From: Escherichia coli
GTDB taxonomy: Bacteria > Pseudomonadota > Gammaproteobacteria > Enterobacterales > Enterobacteriaceae
Assembly (NCBI RefSeq): GCF_001677475.2
Contig: NZ_CP015229.1
DNA: 64,000 nt
Strand: one strand, 5' to 3'
Shown: in pieces, positions 36,177 to 44,149 of the stretch
Layout of the letters: every line of letters begins with the position of its first letter
Numbering within the stretch: position 1 is the first letter of the stretch
Position numbers and translations under genes: made by a program
Notes under the pieces: model-generated
What the model was told of the DNA's origin: nothing
Databases searched by the model: none
What the model saw: the letters and a program-made list of their open reading frames with translations, nothing else

Positions 36177-37841
36177 ATGTCAGACCTTTCACACAGCAGG
36201 GAAAAGGACAAAATCAATCCGGTGGTGTTTTACACTTCCGCCGGACTGATTTTGTTGTTTTCCCTGACAACGATCCTGTTTCGCGACTTCTCGGCCCTGT
36301 GGATTGGACGCACGCTGGACTGGGTCTCTAAAACCTTCGGTTGGTACTATCTGCTGGCGGCAACGCTCTATATTGTCTTTGTGGTCTGTATCGCTTGTTC
36401 GCGTTTTGGTTCGGTGAAGCTCGGGGCAGAACAATCAAAACCGGAATTCAGTCTGCTGAGTTGGGCGGCGATGCTGTTTGCTGCCGGGATCGGTATCGAC
36501 CTGATGTTCTTCTCCGTAGCCGAACCGGTAACGCAGTATATGCAGCCGCCGGAAGGCGCGGGTCAGACGATTGAGGCCGCGCGTCAGGCGATGGTCTGGA
36601 CGCTGTTTCACTACGGCTTAACCGGCTGGTCGATGTATGCGCTGATGGGCATGGCGCTCGGATACTTTAGCTATCGTTATAATTTGCCGCTCACCATCCG
36701 CTCAGCGCTGTACCCGATCTTCGGTAAACGGATTAACGGGCCGATAGGTCACTCAGTGGATATTGCAGCGGTGATCGGCACTATCTTCGGTATTGCCACT
36801 ACGCTCGGTATCGGTGTGGTGCAGCTTAACTATGGCTTGAGCGTACTGTTTGATATTCCTGATTCAATGACGGCGAAAGCGGCACTGATCGCCTTGTCGG
36901 TGATCATCGCAACGATCTCTGTCACCTCCGGTGTCGATAAGGGCATTCGTGTGTTATCGGAACTCAACGTTGCGCTGGCGCTGGGGCTGATCCTGTTCGT
37001 GCTGTTTATGGGCGACACCTCGTTCCTGCTTAATGCGCTGGTGCTGAACGTTGGCGACTATGTGAATCGCTTTATGGGAATGACGCTCAACAGTTTTGCC
37101 TTCGACCGTCCGGTTGAGTGGATGAATAACTGGACGCTCTTCTTCTGGGCATGGTGGGTGGCATGGTCGCCGTTTGTCGGCCTGTTCCTGGCGCGTATCT
37201 CGCGTGGGCGTACCATTCGCCAGTTCGTGCTGGGCACGTTGATTATTCCGTTTACCTTCACGCTGTTATGGCTCTCGGTGTTCGGCAATAGCGCGCTGTA
37301 TGAAATCATCCACGGCGGCGCGGCATTTGCCGAGGAAGCGATGGTCCATCCGGAGCGCGGCTTCTACAGCCTGCTGGCGCAGTATCCGGCGTTTACCTTT
37401 AGCGCCTCCGTCGCCACCATTACTGGCCTGCTGTTTTATGTGACCTCGGCGGACTCCGGGGCGCTGGTGCTGGGGAATTTCACCTCGCAGCTTAAAGATA
37501 TCAACAGCGACGCCCCCGGCTGGCTGCGCGTCTTCTGGTCGGTGGCGATTGGTCTGCTGACGCTTGGCATGCTGATGACCAACGGGATATCCGCGCTGCA
37601 AAACACCACGGTAATCATGGGGCTGCCGTTCAGCTTTGTGATTTTCTTCGTGATGGCGGGGTTGTATAAATCTCTGAAGGTAGAAGATTACCGCCGTGAA
37701 AGTGCCAACCGTGATACCGCGCCGCGACCGTTGGGGCTTCAGGATCGCCTGAGCTGGAAAAAACGTCTCTCGCGCCTGATGAATTATCCGGGCACGCGTT
37801 ACACTAAACAGCTACCGTGTTTAGTCAAGAAAATTATGTGA
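36177..37841 (+). pseudogene. betT: betT 5' fragment: codons 1-545 of the BCCT choline transporter, then 9 IS-encoded codons and a stop
   Basis: ORF track 554 aa ends ...LMNYPGTRYTKQ/LPCLVKKIM*; the remaining BetT C-terminus (MMETVCYPAMEEV...) is found 1.38 kb downstream in the same frame register. Confidence 0.85.
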
Positions 37842-37995
37842 TGTTTGAACATTCCATCTTCAGGAGAAATTTTCTCTGAGTTTTTATAAAAGAGCAGATG
37901 CTCAGTTAGATACCATGAAAGAAGGTAAAAGATACAAACATGTTGCTTCAGCATTGCTCCGGTGTTATTGCTTACCATGTTGTTTTATAATGATT

Positions 37996-38982
37996 TTATT
38001 GATTGTATTCAGCATCGAATGGTAACTGCGTTTTCAGCACACCATAGCACCAGTGCACAAGTTTTCGCATTAATGCTCCAATAGCACACATCTTTGACTT
38101 TCCCCTCTGGCATAACTTCGTATACATCTGTTTCATTACAGGGTTGAACCTCAGCCCACATAAAGCTGCAAGATAAAGTTTTGTTCTTATCTCTGGTGGT
38201 CCAATTTTAGATAATTTAGGTTTTCCCTTTACAGATGTGCCAGATCTCCTTTCTACCGGAACTACACCAAGGAATGCTGCTGCCTGCTCTGCTGATTCGA
38301 ATGAATGGCTTTTGAGTATCGCCAGCATATTTAATCCCAGCAGATAACCAACAGATTTTATTGATGTTAACAGTCTGAAATCCTGGTTTAGTTCCGGGTG
38401 AGTTTCAATATGTTCCTGGATCAGGACATCAAGATGTTCGATCTCATTGTTCAGCTCCTGAAGCATGTGTTCAATTGATGCCCTGACGGCATCAGGGCTG
38501 TCTGTAAAAACAGATTTTTCAAGTCTGTTTTTTTCTCTGGTGCTATCTGCAACAAGAGCGTCTCTGCGGCGTAAAAGAGCTCTAAGATACCGCACAGATT
38601 CCGGTGGTGGAGTCCATGCCTCAGGCTCTTTAAGGGAGCCATAACAAGCCAGCATCCAGGCATCGACTTTGTCATTCTTGGTCAGGATATTCATCCCTCT
38701 GGCAAATTCCCTTGTACGGTGAGGATTGGCTAAAGAAATTCTGGCGCCAGCAAAGTGAAGGCCATAAGCCAGCGGTTCATGATATACCCCAGTGGCTTCC
38801 ATGATGATATGAACTTCGCCCAGTTCACAGGATTGCTTCTTAAGCCACTCTGTCACGACTTTAGCCGCATCAGCGGTATTTTTTAGCTTACGAGTTTTGA
38901 TCCTCCCTTTGATGCCCTCCCGTAAGAGACATAGATCAAGAGTGTTTTTACTGACATCAATACCTAATTGATACATTGGCAT
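37996..38982 (-). CDS. IS110-family DEDD transposase/recombinase (328 aa from the ATG at 38982; ORF frame extends to 39057)
   Basis: ORF track 353 aa; start placed at MPMYQLGIDVSKNTLDL (typical IS110 N-terminus with the first catalytic Asp in GIDVSK) preceded by AGGAG; C-terminal ...RRSGTSVKGKPKLSKIGPPEIRTKLYLAAL... resembles the IS110 transposase C-terminal domain. Confidence 0.8.
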   Translation of the reverse strand: MPMYQLGIDVSKNTLDLCLLREGIKGRIKTRKLKNTADAAKVVTEWLKKQSCELGEVHIIMEATGVYHEPLAYGLHFAGARISLANPHRTREFARGMNILTKNDKVDAWMLACYGSLKEPEAWTPPPESVRYLRALLRRRDALVADSTREKNRLEKSVFTDSPDAVRASIEHMLQELNNEIEHLDVLIQEHIETHPELNQDFRLLTSIKSVGYLLGLNMLAILKSHSFESAEQAAAFLGVVPVERRSGTSVKGKPKLSKIGPPEIRTKLYLAALCGLRFNPVMKQMYTKLCQRGKSKMCAIGALMRKLVHWCYGVLKTQLPFDAEYNQ

Positions 38983-39188
38983 TTTTTCTCCTTTCACATA
39001 ACCATCACGCCAATTTGTCTTGTTCATGCAGAGTCTTAGCTCTTGGCAACCGTTCAATGTTAATGCTGGCGTGAAAGGTGAAGCAGAGGACTATAGCTGT
39101 TGACGAAGGTTATTACCTTAGATGATGGGGTAGGTTCTCTCCGCTTCATGCGATGGTAGCTAATCATCGCTCGTTGATTACATACAAG
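38983..39188 (-). ncRNA. Candidate bridge/seek-RNA coding region in the recombinase-upstream non-coding end of the IS110-family element
   Basis: About 206-bp non-coding end upstream of the recombinase; contains a 9-nt copy of the target right flank (AGATGATGG at 39120-39128 versus 39187-39195) and GGTAGCT (39155-39161), the reverse complement of the left junction AGCTACC (37810-37816); RNA boundaries and structure not determined. Confidence 0.3.
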
Positions 39189-39587
39189 ATGATGGAGACG
39201 GTCTGTTACCCGGCAATGGAAGAAGTGGCGCAGGAGCTGCGGTTGCGCGGCGCGTACGTGGAGCTAAAAAGCCTGCCGCCGGAAGAGGGACAACAGTTGG
39301 GGCATCTGGATTTGTTGGTGCATATGGGCGAAGAGCAAAACTTTGTCTATCAGATTTGGCCGCAGCAATATTCGGTGCCGGGCTTTACCTACCGCGCACG
39401 TAGCGGTAAATCGACCTACTACCGGCTGGAAACCTTCCTGTTAGAAGGCAGCCAGGGCAACGACCTGATGGACTACAGCAAAGAGCAGGTGATCACCGAT
39501 ATTCTCGACCAGTACGAGCGGCACCTTAACTTTATCCATCTCCATCGTGAAGCGCCGGGCCATAGCGTGATGTTCCCGGACGCGTGA
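39189..39587 (+). pseudogene. betT: betT 3' fragment: codons 546-677, the cytoplasmic C-terminal domain
   Basis: ORF track 39153..39587 translates ...MMETVCYPAMEEVAQELRLRGAYVELKS...HSVMFPDA; the first 12 codons of that ORF are IS-derived. Confidence 0.85.
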
Positions 39588-40159
39588 TTGTTATTGCATA
39601 AAACCGCGCCATGTCTGCATATGGCGCGGGAATCATTGACTCGCTGTAAAAAATTATGCATATATTATATATGATTGTCATGTCATATCCTGCAATTCCT
39701 CTTGTATCACTTCATGATTTTATATTTTATTAATTAACGATTTTATTTTGTATTAGCTGAATGGATTCAGTCCTATAGTGTTATATATTTATTAATAAGA
39801 CGATTCTTATATTTTGATACCTAATAAGAGTTACCGCTTTTATCGGCTGTATATTAAATGTATTCCTCTTGCTTTTGTTTATATTTTGAGTTGATTTGAG
39901 TTCCTGGATACATATAATGCGCAGGTATTAGAGACTGGGAGGAATGTAATGATAAAGTTAAGAGTGTTAACTTAAAATAAGTTTTAAGTAATAACTTGCT
40001 ATTTTATTACCCTCTGAACTACATACTCAGATATGTGGTTGCCAATGCTATGCAAAATTTTTGAATTTTTATATGCGATGAACAGTAACCGGAATGGCAT
40101 TTAATGCGTTGCTGTTTATGCAATCTTAGTTTTATTTGGATGTATTGCTGGAGATTGTG

Positions 40160-43100
40160 ATGAATAAAATATATCGGCTAAAGTGGAACAGGTCCCGTAA
40201 CTGTTGGAGCGTCTGCTCTGAGCTGGGGAGCAGAGTAAAAGGAAAAAAGTCCCGGGCTGTTTTAATTAGCGCGATAAGTTTATATTCATCTCTGGTATTC
40301 GCCGATGATGTCATCGTAAACCAGGATAAAACTATTGATTTTGGCAAAGAGAACCAGAGCATCGATTACCGTATTACGGTGACTGACAATGCCAATCTGG
40401 TAATCAATGCGACAGATACTTCCCGTCCGCGTCTGACTCTCGCTTCTGGTGGTGGGTTGGATATTACCGGAGGAAAGGTAACAATCAATGGCCCACTTAA
40501 CTTTTTGCTGAAAGGTACGGGGTTCCTGAATGTCTCCAATGCTGGCAGCGAGTTATATGCTGATGATTTGTATGAGTCAAACTCAGGCATGAGACATGAT
40601 CGCGGCTATTTTAACGTCTCCAACGGCGGTAAAATCCATGTTAAGGGCACCAGCCGTCTGACCTATTTGCAGGGAAATGTCAGTGGTGAAGGCAGCCAGG
40701 TAAATTCTAAAACCTTCTTTATGGGCGTTTACGGCAGTTACGGTGGTAATCAGTACCTGTCAGTTAATAACGGCGGTGAAGTTAATGCCAGTGAGAAAAT
40801 TAGCCTGGGCTATTATGATCAAGTCTCCGATACAACACTTGCTGTTTCGGAAGGTGGTAAAATTTCTGCGCCGACTATTAGTTTAAGCACCAACTCTGAG
40901 TTAGCGTTAGGTGCACAGGAAGGAAGCGCTGCGAAGGCGGCAGGGATTATTGATGCCGAAAAAATTGAGTTTGTGTGGGCAAAGACATCCGATAAGAAAA
41001 TCACCTTAAACCACACGGATAAAAACGCGACTATTTCCGCGGATATTGTCAGTGGCAGCGAGGGCCTGGGCTATATCAATGCGCTCAATGGCACGACTTA
41101 CTTAACCGGGGATAACTCCGCCTTTAGCGGTAAAGTCAAAATTGAGCAAAATGGCGCTTTAGGGATCACCCAAAATATAGGTACAGCAGAGATCACCAAC
41201 CGCGGGAAATTACACCTGAAGGCTGAGGATAGCATGACCTTTGCCAATAAGATCTCCGGCAACGGTACAATAAGTATCGACAGTGGGACGGTGGAGTTGA
41301 CCGGCAATAACTATGCATTCTACGGATATATTGATGTTGCTTCCGATGCTGTAGCTGTTATTTCTGAAGACAAGAACATCGGCCGTGCAGAACTGGATGT
41401 TGATGGCAAACTGCAAATCAATGCCAATAAAGATTGGGTATTTGATAACGATCTTGAAGGTAGAGGCATTGTTGAAATAAACATGGGGAATCACGAATTC
41501 TCCTTCGATGAGTTTGCTTATACAGACTGGTTCCAGGGTTCACTGGCGTTCCAGAACACGACATTTAACCTGGAAAAGAATGCTGAGTTTCTTCAGAGAG
41601 GCGGGATCACTGCGGGTCAGGGAAGTCAGGTAACAGTAGGTAAGGGCGCTCATTCTATTAGCTCTCTGGGATTCTCCGGCGGAACCGTTGATTTTGGTGC
41701 CCTTGCAGCTGGTGCACAGATGACAGAAGGGACAGTCAACATTAGTAAAACGCTGGATTTGCGCGGCGAGGGTGTGATTCAGGTTTCTGACAGTGACGTT
41801 GTCCGCTCAGTATCTCGTGATATTGACTCTGCGTTATCGCTCACTGAAGTCGATGATGGTAACAGCACCATTAAGTTGGTTGATGCGCAAGGTGCGGAAG
41901 TTCTGGGCGATGCGGGCAATCTGCAATTGCAGGATAAAAATGGGCAAATCCTCTCCAGCAGCGCCCAACGTGATATTCAGCAGAATGGGCAAAAAGCGGC
42001 CGTCGGCACTTACGACTATCGTCTGACGAGTGGGGTAAACAATGACGGTCTGTATATCGGTTACGGCCTGACCCAGCTTGATTTACACGCTACCGACAGT
42101 GATGCCCTGGTGCTGAGCTCTAACGGTAAAAGCGAGAATGCCGCCGATCTCAGCGCAAAGATTACCGGCAGTGGTGACCTGGCATTCAGCAGCCAGAAGG
42201 GTCAGACCGTATCGCTTTCTAACAAAGACAACGACTATACCGGTGTTACCGATCTGCGCAGTGGGACGCTTTTGTTGAATAACGATAACGTGTTGGGTCA
42301 TACCCATGAACTGCGTCTGGCGGCAGAGACTGAACTGGATATGAATGGTTACAGCCAGATCGTGGGCACGCTCAATGGCAGCGCCGATTCACTGCTGAGC
42401 TTGAACGGCGGCAGTCTGACGGTTACCAACGGGGGCACTTCAACCGGTTCGTTAACGGGGAGCGGAGAGCTGAATATTCAGGGCGGCACGCTGGACATCG
42501 CGGGCGATAACAGCAACCTGACGGCGAATGTGAACATTGCTAATTCGGCTAATGTCCTGGTAAGTCATGCGCAGGGATTGGGTAGCGCAAACGTTGAGAA
42601 CAACGGTACCCTGGCGTTGAATAATAGCGCTGAAAAAAGAGCGGCTGCGTCTGTGAATTACACCCTGGGCGGCAATCTGACCAACAACGGTACGCTGATG
42701 ACCGGAATGTCAGGACAGCAAGCTGGCAATGTGTTAGTGGTGAAGGGGAACTACCACGGTAATAACGGTCAACTAGTAATGAATACGGTACTGAATGGCG
42801 ATGACTCAGTAACCGATAAATTGGTTGTCGAGGGCGATACTAGCGGCACGACTGCCGTTACGGTGAATAACGCTGGCGGTACAGGTGCGAAAACCCTTAA
42901 CGGTATCGAACTTATCCATGTAGATGGTAAGTCTGAGGGCGAATTTGTTCAGGCTGGGCGTATCGTTGCGGGGGCGTATGACTACACTCTCGCGCGTGGA
43001 CAAGGGGCAAATAGTGGTAACTGGTATCTGACCAGCGGCAGTGATTCTCCTGAACTGCAGCCGGAGCCAGACCCGATGCCGAATCCGGAGCCAAACCCGA

Positions 43101-44149
43101 CACCGAATCCGACACCAGAGCCGACGCCAGAGCCAACGCCTGTTCCTGACCAGACTCTGGATAATGACCTGCGCCCGGAGGCTGGTGGTTACATCGCGAA
43201 CCTTGCGGCAGCCAACACAATGTTAACCTCCCGACTGCATGAACGTCTGGGGAGCACATACTATACCGATCTGGTCACGGGTGAGCAGAAACAAACCACC
43301 ATGTGGATGCGTCATGAAGGGGGTCACAACAAATGGCGTGATGCAAGTGGCCAGTTGAAAACCCAAAGCAATCGCTATGTTCTGCAACTGGGGGGCGATA
43401 TCGCGCAGTGGAGTATAAGTGGCAACGACCGCTGGCATCTGGGGGTCATGGCTGGTTACGGTAACAGTGACAGCAAGACTATCTCATCGCGCACCGGTTA
43501 TCGAACTAAAGCAAGCGTGAATGGTTACAGCACGGGGTTATATGCGACCTGGTATGCGGATGATGAGTCACATAACGGGGCGTATCTCGACAGTTGGGCG
43601 CAGTACAGCTGGTTTGATAACACAGTGAAAGGGGATGACTTACAAAGTGAATCCTATAAATCAAAAGGATTTACCGCTTCACTGGAAGCTGGATACAAAC
43701 ACAAATTAGCTGAATTTAATGGCAGCCAGGGAACGCGTAATGAATGGTATGTTCAGCCGCAAGCACAGGTTACCTGGATGGGAGTCAAAGCCGATAAGCA
43801 CCGCGAAAGCAACGGAACCCTCGTTCATAGCAACGGTGATGGCAATGTTCAAACCCGACTTGGCGTAAAAACCTGGCTGAATAGCCACCATAAAATGGAT
43901 GACGGTAAATCCCGCGAGTTCCAGCCGTTTGTAGAAGTGAACTGGCTACATAACAGTAAGGATTTCAGCATCAGTATGGATGGCGTGTCCGTCACTCAGG
44001 ATGGAGCCCGAAATATTGCTGAGATAAAAACCGGGGTGGAAGGACAGCTAAATGCCAACCTGAATGTCTGGGGGAATGTGGGCGTTCAGGTTGCCGATAG
44101 GGGATATAATGACACCTCTGCAATGGTTGGCATTAAGTGGCAATTCTGA
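40160..44149 (+). CDS. ehaA: AIDA-I/EhaA-type classical autotransporter adhesin (about 1329 aa)
   Basis: ORF track frame 40136..44149; extended signal peptide MNKIYRLKWNRSRNCWSVCSELGSRV; long passenger; Pro-rich linker PEPDPMPNPEPNPTPNPTPEPTPEPTPVP; C-terminal beta-barrel ending ...VGIKWQF; position between betT and pdeL matches the recalled ehaA locus of O157-type strains. Confidence 0.75.
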   Translation: MNKIYRLKWNRSRNCWSVCSELGSRVKGKKSRAVLISAISLYSSLVFADDVIVNQDKTIDFGKENQSIDYRITVTDNANLVINATDTSRPRLTLASGGGLDITGGKVTINGPLNFLLKGTGFLNVSNAGSELYADDLYESNSGMRHDRGYFNVSNGGKIHVKGTSRLTYLQGNVSGEGSQVNSKTFFMGVYGSYGGNQYLSVNNGGEVNASEKISLGYYDQVSDTTLAVSEGGKISAPTISLSTNSELALGAQEGSAAKAAGIIDAEKIEFVWAKTSDKKITLNHTDKNATISADIVSGSEGLGYINALNGTTYLTGDNSAFSGKVKIEQNGALGITQNIGTAEITNRGKLHLKAEDSMTFANKISGNGTISIDSGTVELTGNNYAFYGYIDVASDAVAVISEDKNIGRAELDVDGKLQINANKDWVFDNDLEGRGIVEINMGNHEFSFDEFAYTDWFQGSLAFQNTTFNLEKNAEFLQRGGITAGQGSQVTVGKGAHSISSLGFSGGTVDFGALAAGAQMTEGTVNISKTLDLRGEGVIQVSDSDVVRSVSRDIDSALSLTEVDDGNSTIKLVDAQGAEVLGDAGNLQLQDKNGQILSSSAQRDIQQNGQKAAVGTYDYRLTSGVNNDGLYIGYGLTQLDLHATDSDALVLSSNGKSENAADLSAKITGSGDLAFSSQKGQTVSLSNKDNDYTGVTDLRSGTLLLNNDNVLGHTHELRLAAETELDMNGYSQIVGTLNGSADSLLSLNGGSLTVTNGGTSTGSLTGSGELNIQGGTLDIAGDNSNLTANVNIANSANVLVSHAQGLGSANVENNGTLALNNSAEKRAAASVNYTLGGNLTNNGTLMTGMSGQQAGNVLVVKGNYHGNNGQLVMNTVLNGDDSVTDKLVVEGDTSGTTAVTVNNAGGTGAKTLNGIELIHVDGKSEGEFVQAGRIVAGAYDYTLARGQGANSGNWYLTSGSDSPELQPEPDPMPNPEPNPTPNPTPEPTPEPTPVPDQTLDNDLRPEAGGYIANLAAANTMLTSRLHERLGSTYYTDLVTGEQKQTTMWMRHEGGHNKWRDASGQLKTQSNRYVLQLGGDIAQWSISGNDRWHLGVMAGYGNSDSKTISSRTGYRTKASVNGYSTGLYATWYADDESHNGAYLDSWAQYSWFDNTVKGDDLQSESYKSKGFTASLEAGYKHKLAEFNGSQGTRNEWYVQPQAQVTWMGVKADKHRESNGTLVHSNGDGNVQTRLGVKTWLNSHHKMDDGKSREFQPFVEVNWLHNSKDFSISMDGVSVTQDGARNIAEIKTGVEGQLNANLNVWGNVGVQVADRGYNDTSAMVGIKWQF

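What the first reader, a model, noticed from the sequence alone, without database searches (positions are those of the whole stretch)
38983..39188. Recombinase-upstream non-coding end of the IS110 element carries target-like and junction-like motifs, as expected for a bridge/seek RNA
IS110-family recombinases are guided by an element-encoded non-coding RNA whose loops pair with target and donor DNA (established in 2024). In the 206-bp non-coding end upstream of the recombinase I see AGATGATGG (39120-39128), identical to the 9 nt of betT immediately right of the insertion point (39187-39195). Thirty bases further on is GGTAGCT (39155-39161), the reverse complement of the left junction AGCTACC (37810-37816). 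A 9-mer match in about 400 nt of non-coding DNA is unlikely by chance (roughly 0.3%); the 7-mer is weaker. Together they suggest the guide segments that programmed this insertion.
Basis: partly seen in the sequence, partly recalled or inferred. Interest (0 to 1): 0.7.

Follow-up and report, generated by a model that had tools for sequence, protein, structure and literature searches.

The report
Bridge RNA of an IS110 element

Summary
Both motifs are at the stated coordinates.

**The element.** Window 37812-39188 (minus strand) is an intact 1377-bp IS110-group element. It is inserted at a CT core in betT.

**The RNA.** Its 206-nt left end folds into a 5' stem-loop, a target-binding loop and a donor-binding loop.
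- In 26 relatives, 32 of 36 base pairs show compensatory changes.
- A covariance model built from these relatives finds the IS621 bridge RNA, with all four IS621 guides aligned on the segments predicted here.

**The 9-mer.** AGATGATGG (39120-39128) lies inside the left target guide, CCCCAUCAUCU.

- the right target guide UCAACAG
- the donor guides ACGGUUGCC and AUGAACAAG
- both handshake guides

**The 7-mer.** GGTAGCT is the conserved UUAGCUA loop of the 5' stem-loop plus two stem bases. It does not change when the donor end changes, so it is not a guide.

**The targets.** All E. coli copies carry an identical left end.
- The perfect target, CCCCATCAT-CT-GTTGA, is a repeated sequence in conjugative plasmids, about 40 nt upstream of ssb.
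- betT is a near-match, with one mismatch to the right target guide. Two lineages of the element hit it independently.

This is a new member of a known kind and of low novelty.

The parts
37812..39188 (-). Complete IS110-group insertion sequence, 1377 bp counting one copy of the CT core. It interrupts betT.
   Evidence: The empty-site reconstruction matches intact betT in 5184 records. Full-length copies 97-99.9% identical occur in E. coli plasmids and chromosomes.
38983..39170 (-). Predicted bridge RNA, about 188 nt. It runs from the first base of the 5' stem-loop (the predicted start, 7 nt after the -10 hexamer) to the base before the recombinase start codon.
   Evidence: Covariance model R1 gives a single hit in the window, 38981-39173(-), 182 bits. 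The fold is, and the covariation. The ends are inferred by analogy with the 177-nt IS621 RNA (PMC11208160).
39177..39182 (-). -10 hexamer TGTAAT of the promoter that forms only across the circle junction.
   Evidence: Joining the right end to the left end gives TTGACT-17 nt-TGTAAT. Relatives have TTGACC-17-TATCTT, with both hexamers shifted by 2 nt in step. No sigma-70 site was found in the integrated state.
37823..37828 (-). -35 hexamer TTGACT in the right end.
   Evidence: A TTGAC motif is conserved at this place in most relatives.
39150..39170 (-). 5' stem-loop GCGAUG-AUUAGCUAC-CAUCGC.
   Evidence: Helix 1 has 7 of 8 pairs with compensatory changes. The loop TAGCTA is present in 40 of 54 non-redundant relatives regardless of the donor end.
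39080..39147 (-). Target-binding loop module. The outer stem is GAAGCGGAG/CUCUGCUUC. Inside are an inner stem, an internal loop and a small hairpin.
   Evidence: Helices 2-4 are 91-98% paired, and all 16 pairs show compensatory changes.
39120..39130 (-). Left target guide CCCCAUCAUCU, core CU included.
   Evidence: It is identical to the top strand of the left target, so it pairs with the bottom strand, as defined for IS621. It matches 11/11 at the plasmid site and 9/11 at betT. It aligns on the IS621 left target guide. Across 41 loci the guide covaries with the flank.
39106..39119 (-). Small hairpin of the target-binding loop, AAGGUAAUAACCUU.
   Evidence: helix 4.
39097..39103 (-). Right target guide UCAACAG, the reverse complement of CT-GTTGA.
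   Evidence: It matches 7/7 at the plasmid and ygjI sites and 6/7 at betT (CT-GTTtA). It aligns on the IS621 right target guide.
39095..39096 (-). Handshake guide CU of the target-binding loop. It is complementary to donor positions 6-7 (AG) and not to the target's own positions 6-7.
   Evidence: In relatives it pairs with donor position 7 in 12/13 and position 6 in 10/13. The rule is from PMC11208158.
39006..39073 (-). Donor-binding loop module. The stem is CACGCC/GGCGUG. Inside are an internal loop and a small hairpin.
   Evidence: Helices 5-7 are 92-99% paired, and 9 of 12 pairs show compensatory changes.
39045..39053 (-). Left donor guide ACGGUUGCC.
   Evidence: The right end plus core is ACGGTAG-CT, so the guide has one internal mismatch, and the second core base is C instead of U, as in all relatives. 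The guide covaries with the right end: ATGGTATCC with ATGGTATCT, ACGGTTACC with ACGGTTACT, ACGGTAGCC with ACGGTAGCT. It aligns on the IS621 left donor guide.
39030..39043 (-). Small hairpin of the donor-binding loop, AGAGCUAAGACUCU.
   Evidence: Helix 7 is 99% paired, and 3 of 4 pairs show compensatory changes.
39019..39027 (-). Right donor guide AUGAACAAG. Nine RNA bases pair with seven donor bases (CT-TGTAT), with a 2-nt bulge: AU(ga)ACAAG.
   Evidence: AU..ACAAG is invariant, while the two bulged bases vary freely among relatives. IS621 shows the same discontiguous 9-to-7 pattern, and the segment aligns on the IS621 right donor guide.
39017..39018 (-). Handshake guide AC of the donor-binding loop. 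Its first base pairs with target position 7 (T).
   Evidence: The first base pairs with target position 7 in 37 of 41 loci.
37996..38982 (-). Recombinase gene, 328 aa. The Shine-Dalgarno sequence AGGAG is at 38988-38992.
   Evidence: Pfam DEDD_Tnp_IS110 plus Transposase_20. NCBIfam NF033542, 'IS110 family RNA-guided transposase', 213 bits against a cut-off of 140. Full-length match to the IS621 transposase 8WT6, E 1.8e-48, about 36% identity.
37810..37818 (-). Right end of the element (left donor, ACGGTAG) plus the core CT.
39187..39195 (-). Left half of the betT target plus core (CCATCAT-CT on the minus strand; AGATGATGG on the plus strand).
37803..37809 (-). Right half of the betT target (GTTTAGT on the minus strand). 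It has one mismatch to the right target guide.

Best explanation
Window 38983-39170 (minus strand) encodes the bridge RNA of an intact IS110-group insertion sequence. The element works like IS621.

Proposed mechanism:
1. The element excises as a circle. Joining the right end to the left end creates a promoter, TTGACT-17-TGTAAT, which transcribes the left end.
2. The RNA folds into a 5' stem-loop, a target-binding loop and a donor-binding loop.
3. [quoted passage not shown]
4. In the donor-binding loop, ACGGUUGCC and AU(ga)ACAAG do the same on the joined element ends.
5. Two-base handshake guides (CU and AC) pair with the opposite DNA after the first strand exchange.
6. The DEDD/serine recombinase then exchanges strands at the CT core.

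The perfectly matched natural target is CCCCATCAT-CT-GTTGA. It is a repeated non-coding sequence about 40 nt upstream of ssb and other genes in conjugative plasmids. The betT site, CCATCAT-CT-GTTTA, is a near-match that the same guide has hit at least twice.

Shown here by computation: the fold, its covariation, the guide-DNA complementarity and covariation, the positional match to IS621, and the conserved catalytic residues.

Inferred: transcription from the junction promoter, the RNA ends, RNA-protein binding, and the recombination chemistry.
For: Structure:
- The consensus of 26 relatives has 7 helices and 36 pairs. 95.2% of cells are paired and 32 pairs show compensatory change. 0 of 500 shuffles reached this, and the slid controls were 37-49% paired.
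- Model R1 gives one hit in the window, at 182 bits. It also finds the experimentally defined IS621 bridge RNA at its exact location, with all four guides aligned on my predicted segments.

Guides:
- Across 41 loci with both flanks, the 9-base left target matches the cognate RNA 9/9 in 39% of cases, against 0.7% for non-cognate pairs. The right target matches at least 6/7 in 49% against 12%. The permutation test gave 0 of 10000.
- The left donor guide covaries with the right end.
- The handshake positions follow the published rule (PMC11208158).

Natural sites of this element:
- plasmid site: 11/11 and 7/7
- betT: 9/11 and 6/7
- ygjI: 7/7 on the right side

Independent insertions. Two lineages of the element differ at 40 positions, all outside the left end, and each has a copy at the same betT position.

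Protein. IS110 domains, NCBIfam NF033542, and a full-length match to IS621 with the D, E, D, D and S residues conserved.

Promoter. It spans the junction, and the -35 and -10 hexamers shift together in relatives. No promoter was found in the integrated copy.
Against: - Nothing here shows that the RNA is made, that it binds the protein, or that it directs recombination.
- The -10 hexamer TGTAAT lacks the usual A at its second position, so it would fail the scan tool's own criterion.
- The left donor guide has an internal mismatch to this element's own right end (U opposite the T that pairs with A6).
- The match to IS621 by the covariance model is weak (18 bits). The recombinases share only about 36% identity.
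- Rfam 15 gave no family match for this region.
- The single-sequence fold is only mildly better than shuffles (z = -1.8).
- The ygjI insertion site fits the left target guide only if one base is bulged.
Confidence: 0.9

Rival explanations
1. One reading: both motifs are programmable guide segments. AGATGATGG reads the target, and GGTAGCT (AGCUACC in the RNA) reads the left junction or donor.
For: AGCUACC is the exact complement of GGTAGCT at the right end plus core. It lies in a hairpin loop, where it would be free to pair.
Against: - The motif is in the 5' stem-loop, outside both binding loops. In IS621 that stem-loop is not seen in the synaptic complex, and deleting it only slightly reduces recombination.
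- The loop is unchanged in relatives whose right end is ACGGTATCT, ATGGTATCT or ACGGTTACT, so it does not covary with the donor.
- A segment that does covary with the right end exists elsewhere, at 39045-39053.
- The published left donor guide has the sequence of the donor's top strand and pairs with its bottom strand. AGCUACC is the complement of the top strand, so it would pair with the wrong strand.
- A junction 7-mer turns up by chance in at least 6.5% of shuffles.
Confidence: 0.04
2. The conserved structure is only a leader that controls recombinase expression (an attenuator or translational control), and the 9-mer match to the flank is coincidence.
For: A 2026 preprint reports that the IS621 5' stem-loop lowers downstream expression. 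The RNA runs into the ribosome-binding site of the recombinase.
Against: - A pure leader would not have internal-loop sequences that change together with the DNA flanking each relative's insertion. That is what 41 loci show.
- The 9-mer has a chance probability of about 0.3%.
- The plasmid site matches the left and right guides 11/11 and 7/7.
Confidence: 0.03
3. The 9-mer in the end is a leftover of target DNA, for example a copied flank from an earlier insertion or a duplication made on integration, and not an RNA guide.
For: The left target guide has the same sequence as the target's top strand, so at the DNA level it looks like a copy of the flank. An IS621 copy in locus L010 shows a left-end fragment joined exactly at that element's own left target guide.
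Against: - The segment is identical in every copy whatever the site.
- It sits at the homologous loop position in all relatives, where it differs in sequence and matches each relative's own flank.
- The element duplicates only the 2-bp core.
Confidence: 0.02

Closest known systems
IS621 bridge RNA and recombinase (E. coli; Durrant et al. 2024, PMC11208160; Hiraizumi et al. 2024, PMC11208158)
   Same: - The RNA is encoded in the left end, upstream of a DEDD/serine recombinase.
- It has a 5' stem-loop, then a target-binding loop, then a donor-binding loop.
- The core is CT.
- The left guides have the top-strand sequence, and the right guides are its complement.
- The right donor guide is discontiguous, 9 RNA bases to 7 DNA bases.
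- The second core base of the left donor guide is mismatched.
- Handshake guides follow each right guide.
- The donor's right half begins TGTAT.
- The promoter is split across the circle junction.
- The covariance model built here aligns the four IS621 guides onto the predicted segments.
   Different: - The recombinases are only about 36% identical, and the RNA sequence is barely alignable (18 bits).
- The target is a repeated sequence upstream of ssb and neighbouring genes in conjugative plasmids. IS621 targets chromosomal REP elements.
- The right target guide is 7 nt with the core. Durrant's analysis of IS621-type loops uses a four-base one.
- The left target guide matches its best target over 11 nt.
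- The right end is long for this group (184 nt).
- The loop of the 5' stem-loop is a conserved UUAGCUA.
ISCro4 / IS622 bridge recombinase (Citrobacter rodentium; bioRxiv 10.1101/2025.05.14.653916; PDB 9T56)
   Same: Same family and domain order. The protein matches at E 4.9e-45 over its full length.
   Different: IS622 is 88% identical to IS621. It is therefore as distant from this element as IS621 is.
seekRNA / bridge RNA of the IS1111 group (IS1111 subgroup of the IS110 family; group features from PMC11208160; the name seekRNA is from my own knowledge)
   Same: A DEDD recombinase guided by an element-encoded RNA that reads both target and donor.
   Different: In IS1111 elements the RNA is in the right end, downstream of the gene, and the ends carry 7-17 bp subterminal inverted repeats. 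Here the RNA is in the left end.
ISPpu10 bridge RNA (Pseudomonas putida; bioRxiv 10.64898/2026.03.19.712850)
   Same: An IS110-group bridge RNA with a preference for a repeated non-coding target.
   Different: ISPpu10 is reported to lack the 5' stem-loop and to need a hairpin in the target DNA. This element has a well-supported 5' stem-loop. I did not test whether its target needs a hairpin.

Membership tests
IS110-group bridge RNA system (IS621 type) | Recombinase with an N-terminal DEDD (RuvC-like) domain and a C-terminal Tnp domain carrying the catalytic serine | tested here: met
   - Pfam PF01548 (1.4e-24) plus PF02371 (1.4e-18).
- NCBIfam NF033542, 213 bits against a cut-off of 140.
- Aligned end to end with IS621 8WT6, with GID, EATG, D..D and SG.S conserved.
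- D9, E62, D107 and S247 are invariant, and D104 nearly so, in 16 homologues.
IS110-group bridge RNA system (IS621 type) | Non-coding RNA encoded in the left end, on the recombinase strand, upstream of the gene | tested here: met
   The structured region 38983-39170(-) lies between the element's left end (39186) and the ATG (38982).
IS110-group bridge RNA system (IS621 type) | [quoted passage not shown] | tested here: met
   36 pairs, 95.2% paired, 32 with compensatory changes. 0 of 500 shuffles reached this, and the slid controls were 37-49% paired.
IS110-group bridge RNA system (IS621 type) | Positional homology with the experimentally defined IS621 bridge RNA | tested here: met
   Model R1 hits locus L010 at 1573-1782, exactly where the 177-nt IS621 RNA begins, with E 2e-6 within that locus. 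All four guides are aligned. The score is low, 18 bits.
IS110-group bridge RNA system (IS621 type) | The first internal loop carries a left guide equal to the target's top strand and a right guide complementary to it, both including the core, and both covary with the insertion flanks | tested here: met
   For the window, 9/9 (core included) on the left and 6/7 on the right at betT. At the plasmid site, 11/11 and 7/7. Covariation holds across 41 loci, with a permutation result of 0 in 10000.
IS110-group bridge RNA system (IS621 type) | The second internal loop carries guides matching the joined element ends (donor) | tested here: met
   - Left donor guide ACGGUUGCC against ACGGTAG-CT: 7/9, and it covaries with the right end in relatives.
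- Right donor guide AU(ga)ACAAG against CT-TGTAT: 7/7 with the 2-nt bulge.

IS110-group bridge RNA system (IS621 type) | A 2-bp core, duplicated at both junctions and read by the guides | tested here: met
   CT is at both junctions, and only 2 bp are duplicated relative to intact betT, the plasmid site and ygjI. The left target, right target and right donor guides read CT or AG. The left donor guide has CC, a conserved mismatch that parallels the CA of IS621.
IS110-group bridge RNA system (IS621 type) | Handshake guides: the two bases 3' of each right guide pair with positions 6-7 of the other DNA and not with their own | tested here: met
   In the window, CU pairs with donor AG in full, and the first base of AC pairs with target T7. 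In relatives the counts are 12/13, 10/13 and 37/41. The rule is from PMC11208158.
IS110-group bridge RNA system (IS621 type) | A sigma-70 promoter rebuilt across the right-end/left-end junction of the excised circle | tested here: inconclusive
   The sequence fits: TTGACT-17-TGTAAT, 10 of 12 matches. Relatives have TTGACC-17-TATCTT, with both hexamers shifted together. There is no promoter in the integrated copy. However, TGTAAT lacks the A at its second position, and no expression data exist.
IS110-group bridge RNA system (IS621 type) | The RNA is expressed, binds the recombinase and can be reprogrammed to new targets | not testable with these tools
   This needs small-RNA sequencing, binding assays and recombination assays.
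Rfam curated RNA family | A match to a curated covariance model | tested here: not met
   There was no meaningful match in 37500-39500 at E up to 10. The three hits listed are eukaryotic and archaeal RNAs at E 8-9. This shows only that Rfam 15 has no model that recognises this RNA.
IS1111-group (seekRNA) elements | Guide RNA in the right end downstream of the gene, with long subterminal inverted repeats | tested here: not met
   The structured, covarying RNA is in the left end. The ends show at most a 2-bp inverted match (AC...GT) around the donor sequence (and my own inspection).

The most novel reading that the evidence does not exclude
The loop of the 5' stem-loop may be a functional element that has not been described. 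In this clade it is nearly invariant (UUAGCUA), across recombinases down to about 43% identity. It contains the 6-nt palindrome UAGCUA, and that palindrome is out of register with the hairpin's own symmetry.

[quoted passage not shown] A self-complementary loop could therefore hold two bridge RNAs together by loop-loop pairing. Alternatively it could be a specific contact for the recombinase or a host factor.

Some variants keep self-complementarity: AAGCUU, UGGCUA and UAGCUG (the last two with G-U pairs). Others break the outer pair.
Probability: 0.1. Interest if true: 0.55.

Novelty: new member of a known kind. Interest (0 to 1): 0.25.

Why it matters
This is a textbook natural example of RNA-guided transposition, and the whole logic can be read from sequence alone. 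There is one fixed guide and one perfectly matched, highly repeated plasmid target. A chromosomal near-match in betT, with a single mismatch to the right target guide, has been hit independently by two lineages of the element. A further site, in ygjI, fits only if one guide base is bulged.

That gives a small natural record of off-target tolerance for a bridge recombinase only about 36% identical to IS621. It also identifies a conserved sequence in conjugative plasmids as the element's home site.

It adds no new principle. For annotation, it shows where the guides of this element really are, and that the 5' stem-loop motif should not be read as a guide. For the host, the insertion truncates the choline transporter BetT after about residue 545. 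Its effect on osmoprotection was not examined.

Tried and rejected
- **Rfam.** The scan at permissive E-values gave only noise, so there was no curated model to lean on.
- **5' loop pairing with the donor end.** I asked whether AGCUACC pairs with the donor's right end. I rejected this because the loop does not change when the right end does.
- **5' loop pairing within the RNA.** I asked whether the loop pairs with the RNA's own left donor guide (GGUAGCC-like) or with the AGCUA of the right target guide plus handshake guide. Inspection of the sequences showed no covariation with either. Relatives with GGUAUCC or AGAU keep UAGCUA.
- **First search for right ends.** The pattern required a TTG -35 element and was too strict. 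I replaced it with a looser one.
- **Naming the element.** Searches of the Durrant 2024 supplement and of other papers for this element's sequence or an ISfinder name found related alignments containing TTAGCTACC but not this element. I cannot give it an ISfinder name.
- **Integrated-state promoter.** No sigma-70 promoter was found. This fits a junction-only promoter but is not evidence for one on its own.

Full report
**Observation**

The window around the finding is E. coli betT, interrupted by an IS110-family element whose recombinase gene is on the minus strand.
- AGATGATGG is at 39120-39128 and 39187-39195, and nowhere else in the 64 kb.
- GGTAGCT at 39155-39161 is the reverse complement of AGCTACC at 37810-37816.
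- Shuffles of the 206-nt end put the chance of a junction 9-mer at about 0.3%. For a junction 7-mer it is at least 6.5%.
- Joining the flanks with a single AG reproduces intact betT in 5184 E. coli records as one aligned piece.

The element is therefore 1377 bp (37812-39188). It is inserted at a CT core, read on the element's strand, and only the core is duplicated.

**Anatomy in the element's orientation (minus strand)**

The junctions read CCATCAT-CT-TGTATGTAAT...[element]...AAACACGGTAG-CT-GTTTAGT.

The recombinase:
- It is 328 aa (37996-38982).
- It has the Pfam DEDD_Tnp_IS110 and Transposase_20 domains.
- It scores 213 bits on NCBIfam NF033542, 'IS110 family RNA-guided transposase', against a cut-off of 140.
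- It aligns end to end with the IS621 transposase of PDB 8WT6 (E 1.8e-48, about 36% identity), with the catalytic D, E, D, D and S motifs conserved.

**The RNA fold**

The minus-strand transcript folds into three parts:
- a terminal hairpin;
- a long stem enclosing a large internal loop and a small hairpin;
- a second stem enclosing another internal loop and small hairpin.

To test this I collected relatives.
- Other E. coli copies: L001-L006.
- A 72%-identical relative in E. coli plasmids: L007-L009.
- 80 loci from a scan of one genome per species, with recombinases 41-75% identical: L011-L090.

An alignment of 26 left ends gives a consensus with 7 helices. Counting pairs on it gives the following.
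- 95.2% of cells are paired.
- 32 of 36 pairs have compensatory changes on both sides.
- No shuffle in 500 reached the observed values.
- Sliding the 3' partners by 1-3 columns drops pairing to 37-49%.

A covariance model built from this alignment behaves as follows.
- It finds one hit in the window, 38981-39173 on the minus strand, at 182 bits.
- It finds full-length hits in distant relatives that were not used to build it.
- It finds the IS621 bridge RNA in locus L010, starting exactly where the published 177-nt RNA starts (18 bits; E 2e-6 within the locus).
- In that hit, the IS621 left target, right target, left donor and right donor guides all align on the segments I had predicted.

I wrote the IS621 sequence from memory. 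It matched E. coli genomes at 100%, next to genes annotated 'IS110-like element IS621 family transposase'.

**Guides**

Durrant et al. define the guides as follows (PMC11208160).
[quoted passage not shown] - The donor loop follows the same arrangement.
- The core is included in all four pairings.

In this element the guides are these (coordinates).
- **Left target guide:** the 5' side of the first internal loop reads CCCCAUCAUCU (39130-39120).
- **Right target guide:** 25 nt downstream, after the small hairpin, comes UCAACAG (39103-39097), the complement of CT-GTTGA.
- **Left donor guide:** the second internal loop carries ACGGUUGCC (39053-39045). The right end is ACGGTAG-CT.
- **Right donor guide:** AUGAACAAG (39027-39019) pairs with CT-TGTAT when two bases are bulged. 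This is the same discontiguous 9-to-7 pattern reported for IS621.

Across relatives these segments change with the flanking DNA.
- In 41 loci with both flanks, the 9-base left target is found 9/9 in the cognate RNA in 39% of cases, against 0.7% for non-cognate pairs.
- The right target is found at 6/7 or better in 49%, against 12%.
- A permutation test gave 0 of 10000.
- L011 is a clean example. Its flanks AACTATC-CT and CT-GACAC match its guides AACUAUCCU and GUGUCAG exactly.
- The left donor guide follows the right end: ATGGTATCC with ATGGTATCT, ACGGTTACC with ACGGTTACT, ACGGTAGCC with ACGGTAGCT.
- The two bulged bases in the right donor guide vary freely, while AU..ACAAG is fixed.

The handshake guides described by Hiraizumi et al. 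(PMC11208158) are also present.
- The two bases after the right target guide (CU) complement donor positions 6-7 (AG).
- The first base after the right donor guide (A) complements target position 7 (T).
- In relatives these rules hold in 12/13, 10/13 and 37/41 cases.

**The 7-mer**

AGCUACC lies in the 5' stem-loop GCGAUG-AUUAGCUAC-CAUCGC (39170-39150), upstream of both binding loops.
- The stem covaries: GUGGUG/CACCAC, GUAAUG/CAUUAC, CUUGUUG/CAGCAGG and others.
- The loop motif UUAGCUA is almost invariant. TAGCTA is present in 40 of 54 non-redundant left ends.
- The loop stays the same where the right end is ACGGTATCT, ATGGTATCT or ACGGTTACT.

It is therefore not a programmable guide. Its complementarity to this element's right end comes from a conserved loop that contains the palindrome AGCU, set against a conserved donor end. 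In IS621 the 5' stem-loop is not visible in the synaptic complex, and deleting it only slightly lowers recombination. A 2026 preprint calls it a brake on downstream expression.

**Targets and history**

All six other E. coli copies examined have a left end identical to the window's over the ~210 nt compared. Their sites are listed here.

| Site | Sequence | Left target guide | Right target guide |
|---|---|---|---|
| Conjugative plasmids | CCCCCATCAT-CT-GTTGAG | 11/11 | 7/7 |
| betT (this window) | tctCCATCAT-CT-GTTtAG | 9/11 | 6/7 |
| ygjI | CCCCATCA-CT-GTTGAC | fits only with one bulged base | 7/7 |

- The reconstructed empty plasmid site matches at 100% and occurs about three times per plasmid. 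The search reached its ceiling of 5000 matching records, and 2325 of them contain at least 80% of the 300-nt query.
- From the flanks in L001 and L005, the site lies about 40 nt upstream of the start codons of ssb and of a 95-aa hypothetical protein.
- The reconstructed intact ygjI site matches at 100%.

The window's copy differs from a plasmid copy (L001) at 2 positions. It differs from the other betT insertion (L006, another strain) at 40 positions, all outside the left end. L006 is identical to a plasmid copy of the second lineage (L003). So two lineages with the same guide reached the same betT position independently. The strain that carries the closest betT insertion also carries the element at the ssb site on two of its plasmids (H1, H9, H10).

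Copies elsewhere do carry identical motifs, and that is what a fixed natural guide predicts. Zero changes in 206 nt of left end, against 40 in the other ~1170 nt, also points to strong constraint on the RNA.

**Expression**

The integrated copy has no sigma-70-like promoter. Joining the right end to the left end gives TTGACT-17 nt-TGTAAT. Relatives whose left end begins TGTATCTT have TTGACC-17-TATCTT, with the -35 hexamer moved by 2 nt in step with the -10 hexamer. This fits the promoter rebuilt on excision that is described for IS621. It remains a sequence argument only, and TGTAAT lacks the usual A at its second position.

**Comparison and novelty**

By every feature I could test, this is a member of the IS110-group bridge RNA systems typified by IS621. 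It is distant in sequence, with a protein about 36% identical and an RNA that a covariance model only just detects.
- It is not an IS1111-type element, because its RNA is in the left end.
- Rfam 15 has no model that recognises it.
- I could not find this element named or described in the papers searched.
- RefSeq already labels some copies 'IS110 family RNA-guided transposase'.

I rate it a new member of a known kind.

Noticed in passing
window 39156-39164 (minus strand); same position in L011-L089: The loop of the 5' stem-loop is nearly invariant in this clade (UUAGCUA; TAGCTA in 40 of 54 non-redundant left ends). The structural paper on IS621 says these stem-loops have diverse sequences. The loop contains a 6-nt palindrome that is out of register with the hairpin's own symmetry. 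Some variants keep self-complementarity (AAGCUU in L056/L059, UGGCUA in L018, UAGCUG in L070/L075). Others break only the outer pair.
   Followed up: partly
L001-L003 and H102-H113 (plasmids); the site corresponds to the flanks of the element in L001 at 390-402 and 1779-1790: The perfectly matched target of this element is a conserved non-coding sequence. It occurs about three times per plasmid, and the search reached its 5000-record ceiling (mostly conjugative Escherichia, Klebsiella, Salmonella and Shigella plasmids). It lies about 40 nt upstream of ssb and of a 95-aa hypothetical gene. From memory, this may be the repeated single-strand promoter region of plasmid leading regions. I did not test that.
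   Followed up: partly
L004 (E. coli GmF052 chromosome, ygjI), junction at about 390-402: One copy sits in ygjI at CCCCATCA-CT-GTTGAC. This left half is one base shorter than the guide expects. The intact gene has exactly this sequence, so integration seems to tolerate a bulged guide base when the right side matches 7/7.
   Followed up: partly
L005 (E. coli GPEC1258 chromosome): This copy has the plasmid-type flank, with an ssb gene, on one side and chromosomal yifB on the other. That suggests a rearrangement or plasmid integration mediated by the element, not a simple insertion.
   Followed up: no
L007, L008, L009 (72% relative in E. coli plasmids): The relative's right flank (CT-GCTAAG) matches its right target guide UUAGCAG. 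Its left flanks (ACTGGTG-CT in L007, ACAGTAT-CT in L008/L009) do not match its left target guide CCCAGCCCU, and they differ between plasmids. The DNA to the left of these copies has probably been rearranged or deleted.
   Followed up: no
L010 1450-1650 (IS621 copy in E. coli NN5); a similar two-piece match in the other top hits: A fragment of the IS621 left end is repeated in tandem, and the repeat junction falls exactly after ATCGGGCCT, the element's own left target guide. The DNA encoding a left target guide looks like the target's left half, so it seems able to act as a recombination site.
   Followed up: no
window 37908-37936 (minus strand), inside the element's right end: The right end is long for this group: 184 nt here, against the much shorter right ends implied by the offsets for relatives. 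It contains TGTATCTT, then 12 nt, then ATGGTATCT. These are the left-end start and right-end finish typical of related elements. This may be the scar of an old insertion of a relative, followed by an internal deletion.
   Followed up: no
window 37812-39188 compared with L006/L003: The two lineages of the element differ at 40 positions, and none of them lies in the 206-nt left end. The bridge RNA region is more conserved than the recombinase gene.
   Followed up: partly
window 40136-44149 (+): A 1337-aa ORF lies just downstream of betT. Judged only by eye from the translation, its sequence looks like a large autotransporter adhesin. I did not examine it.
   Followed up: no
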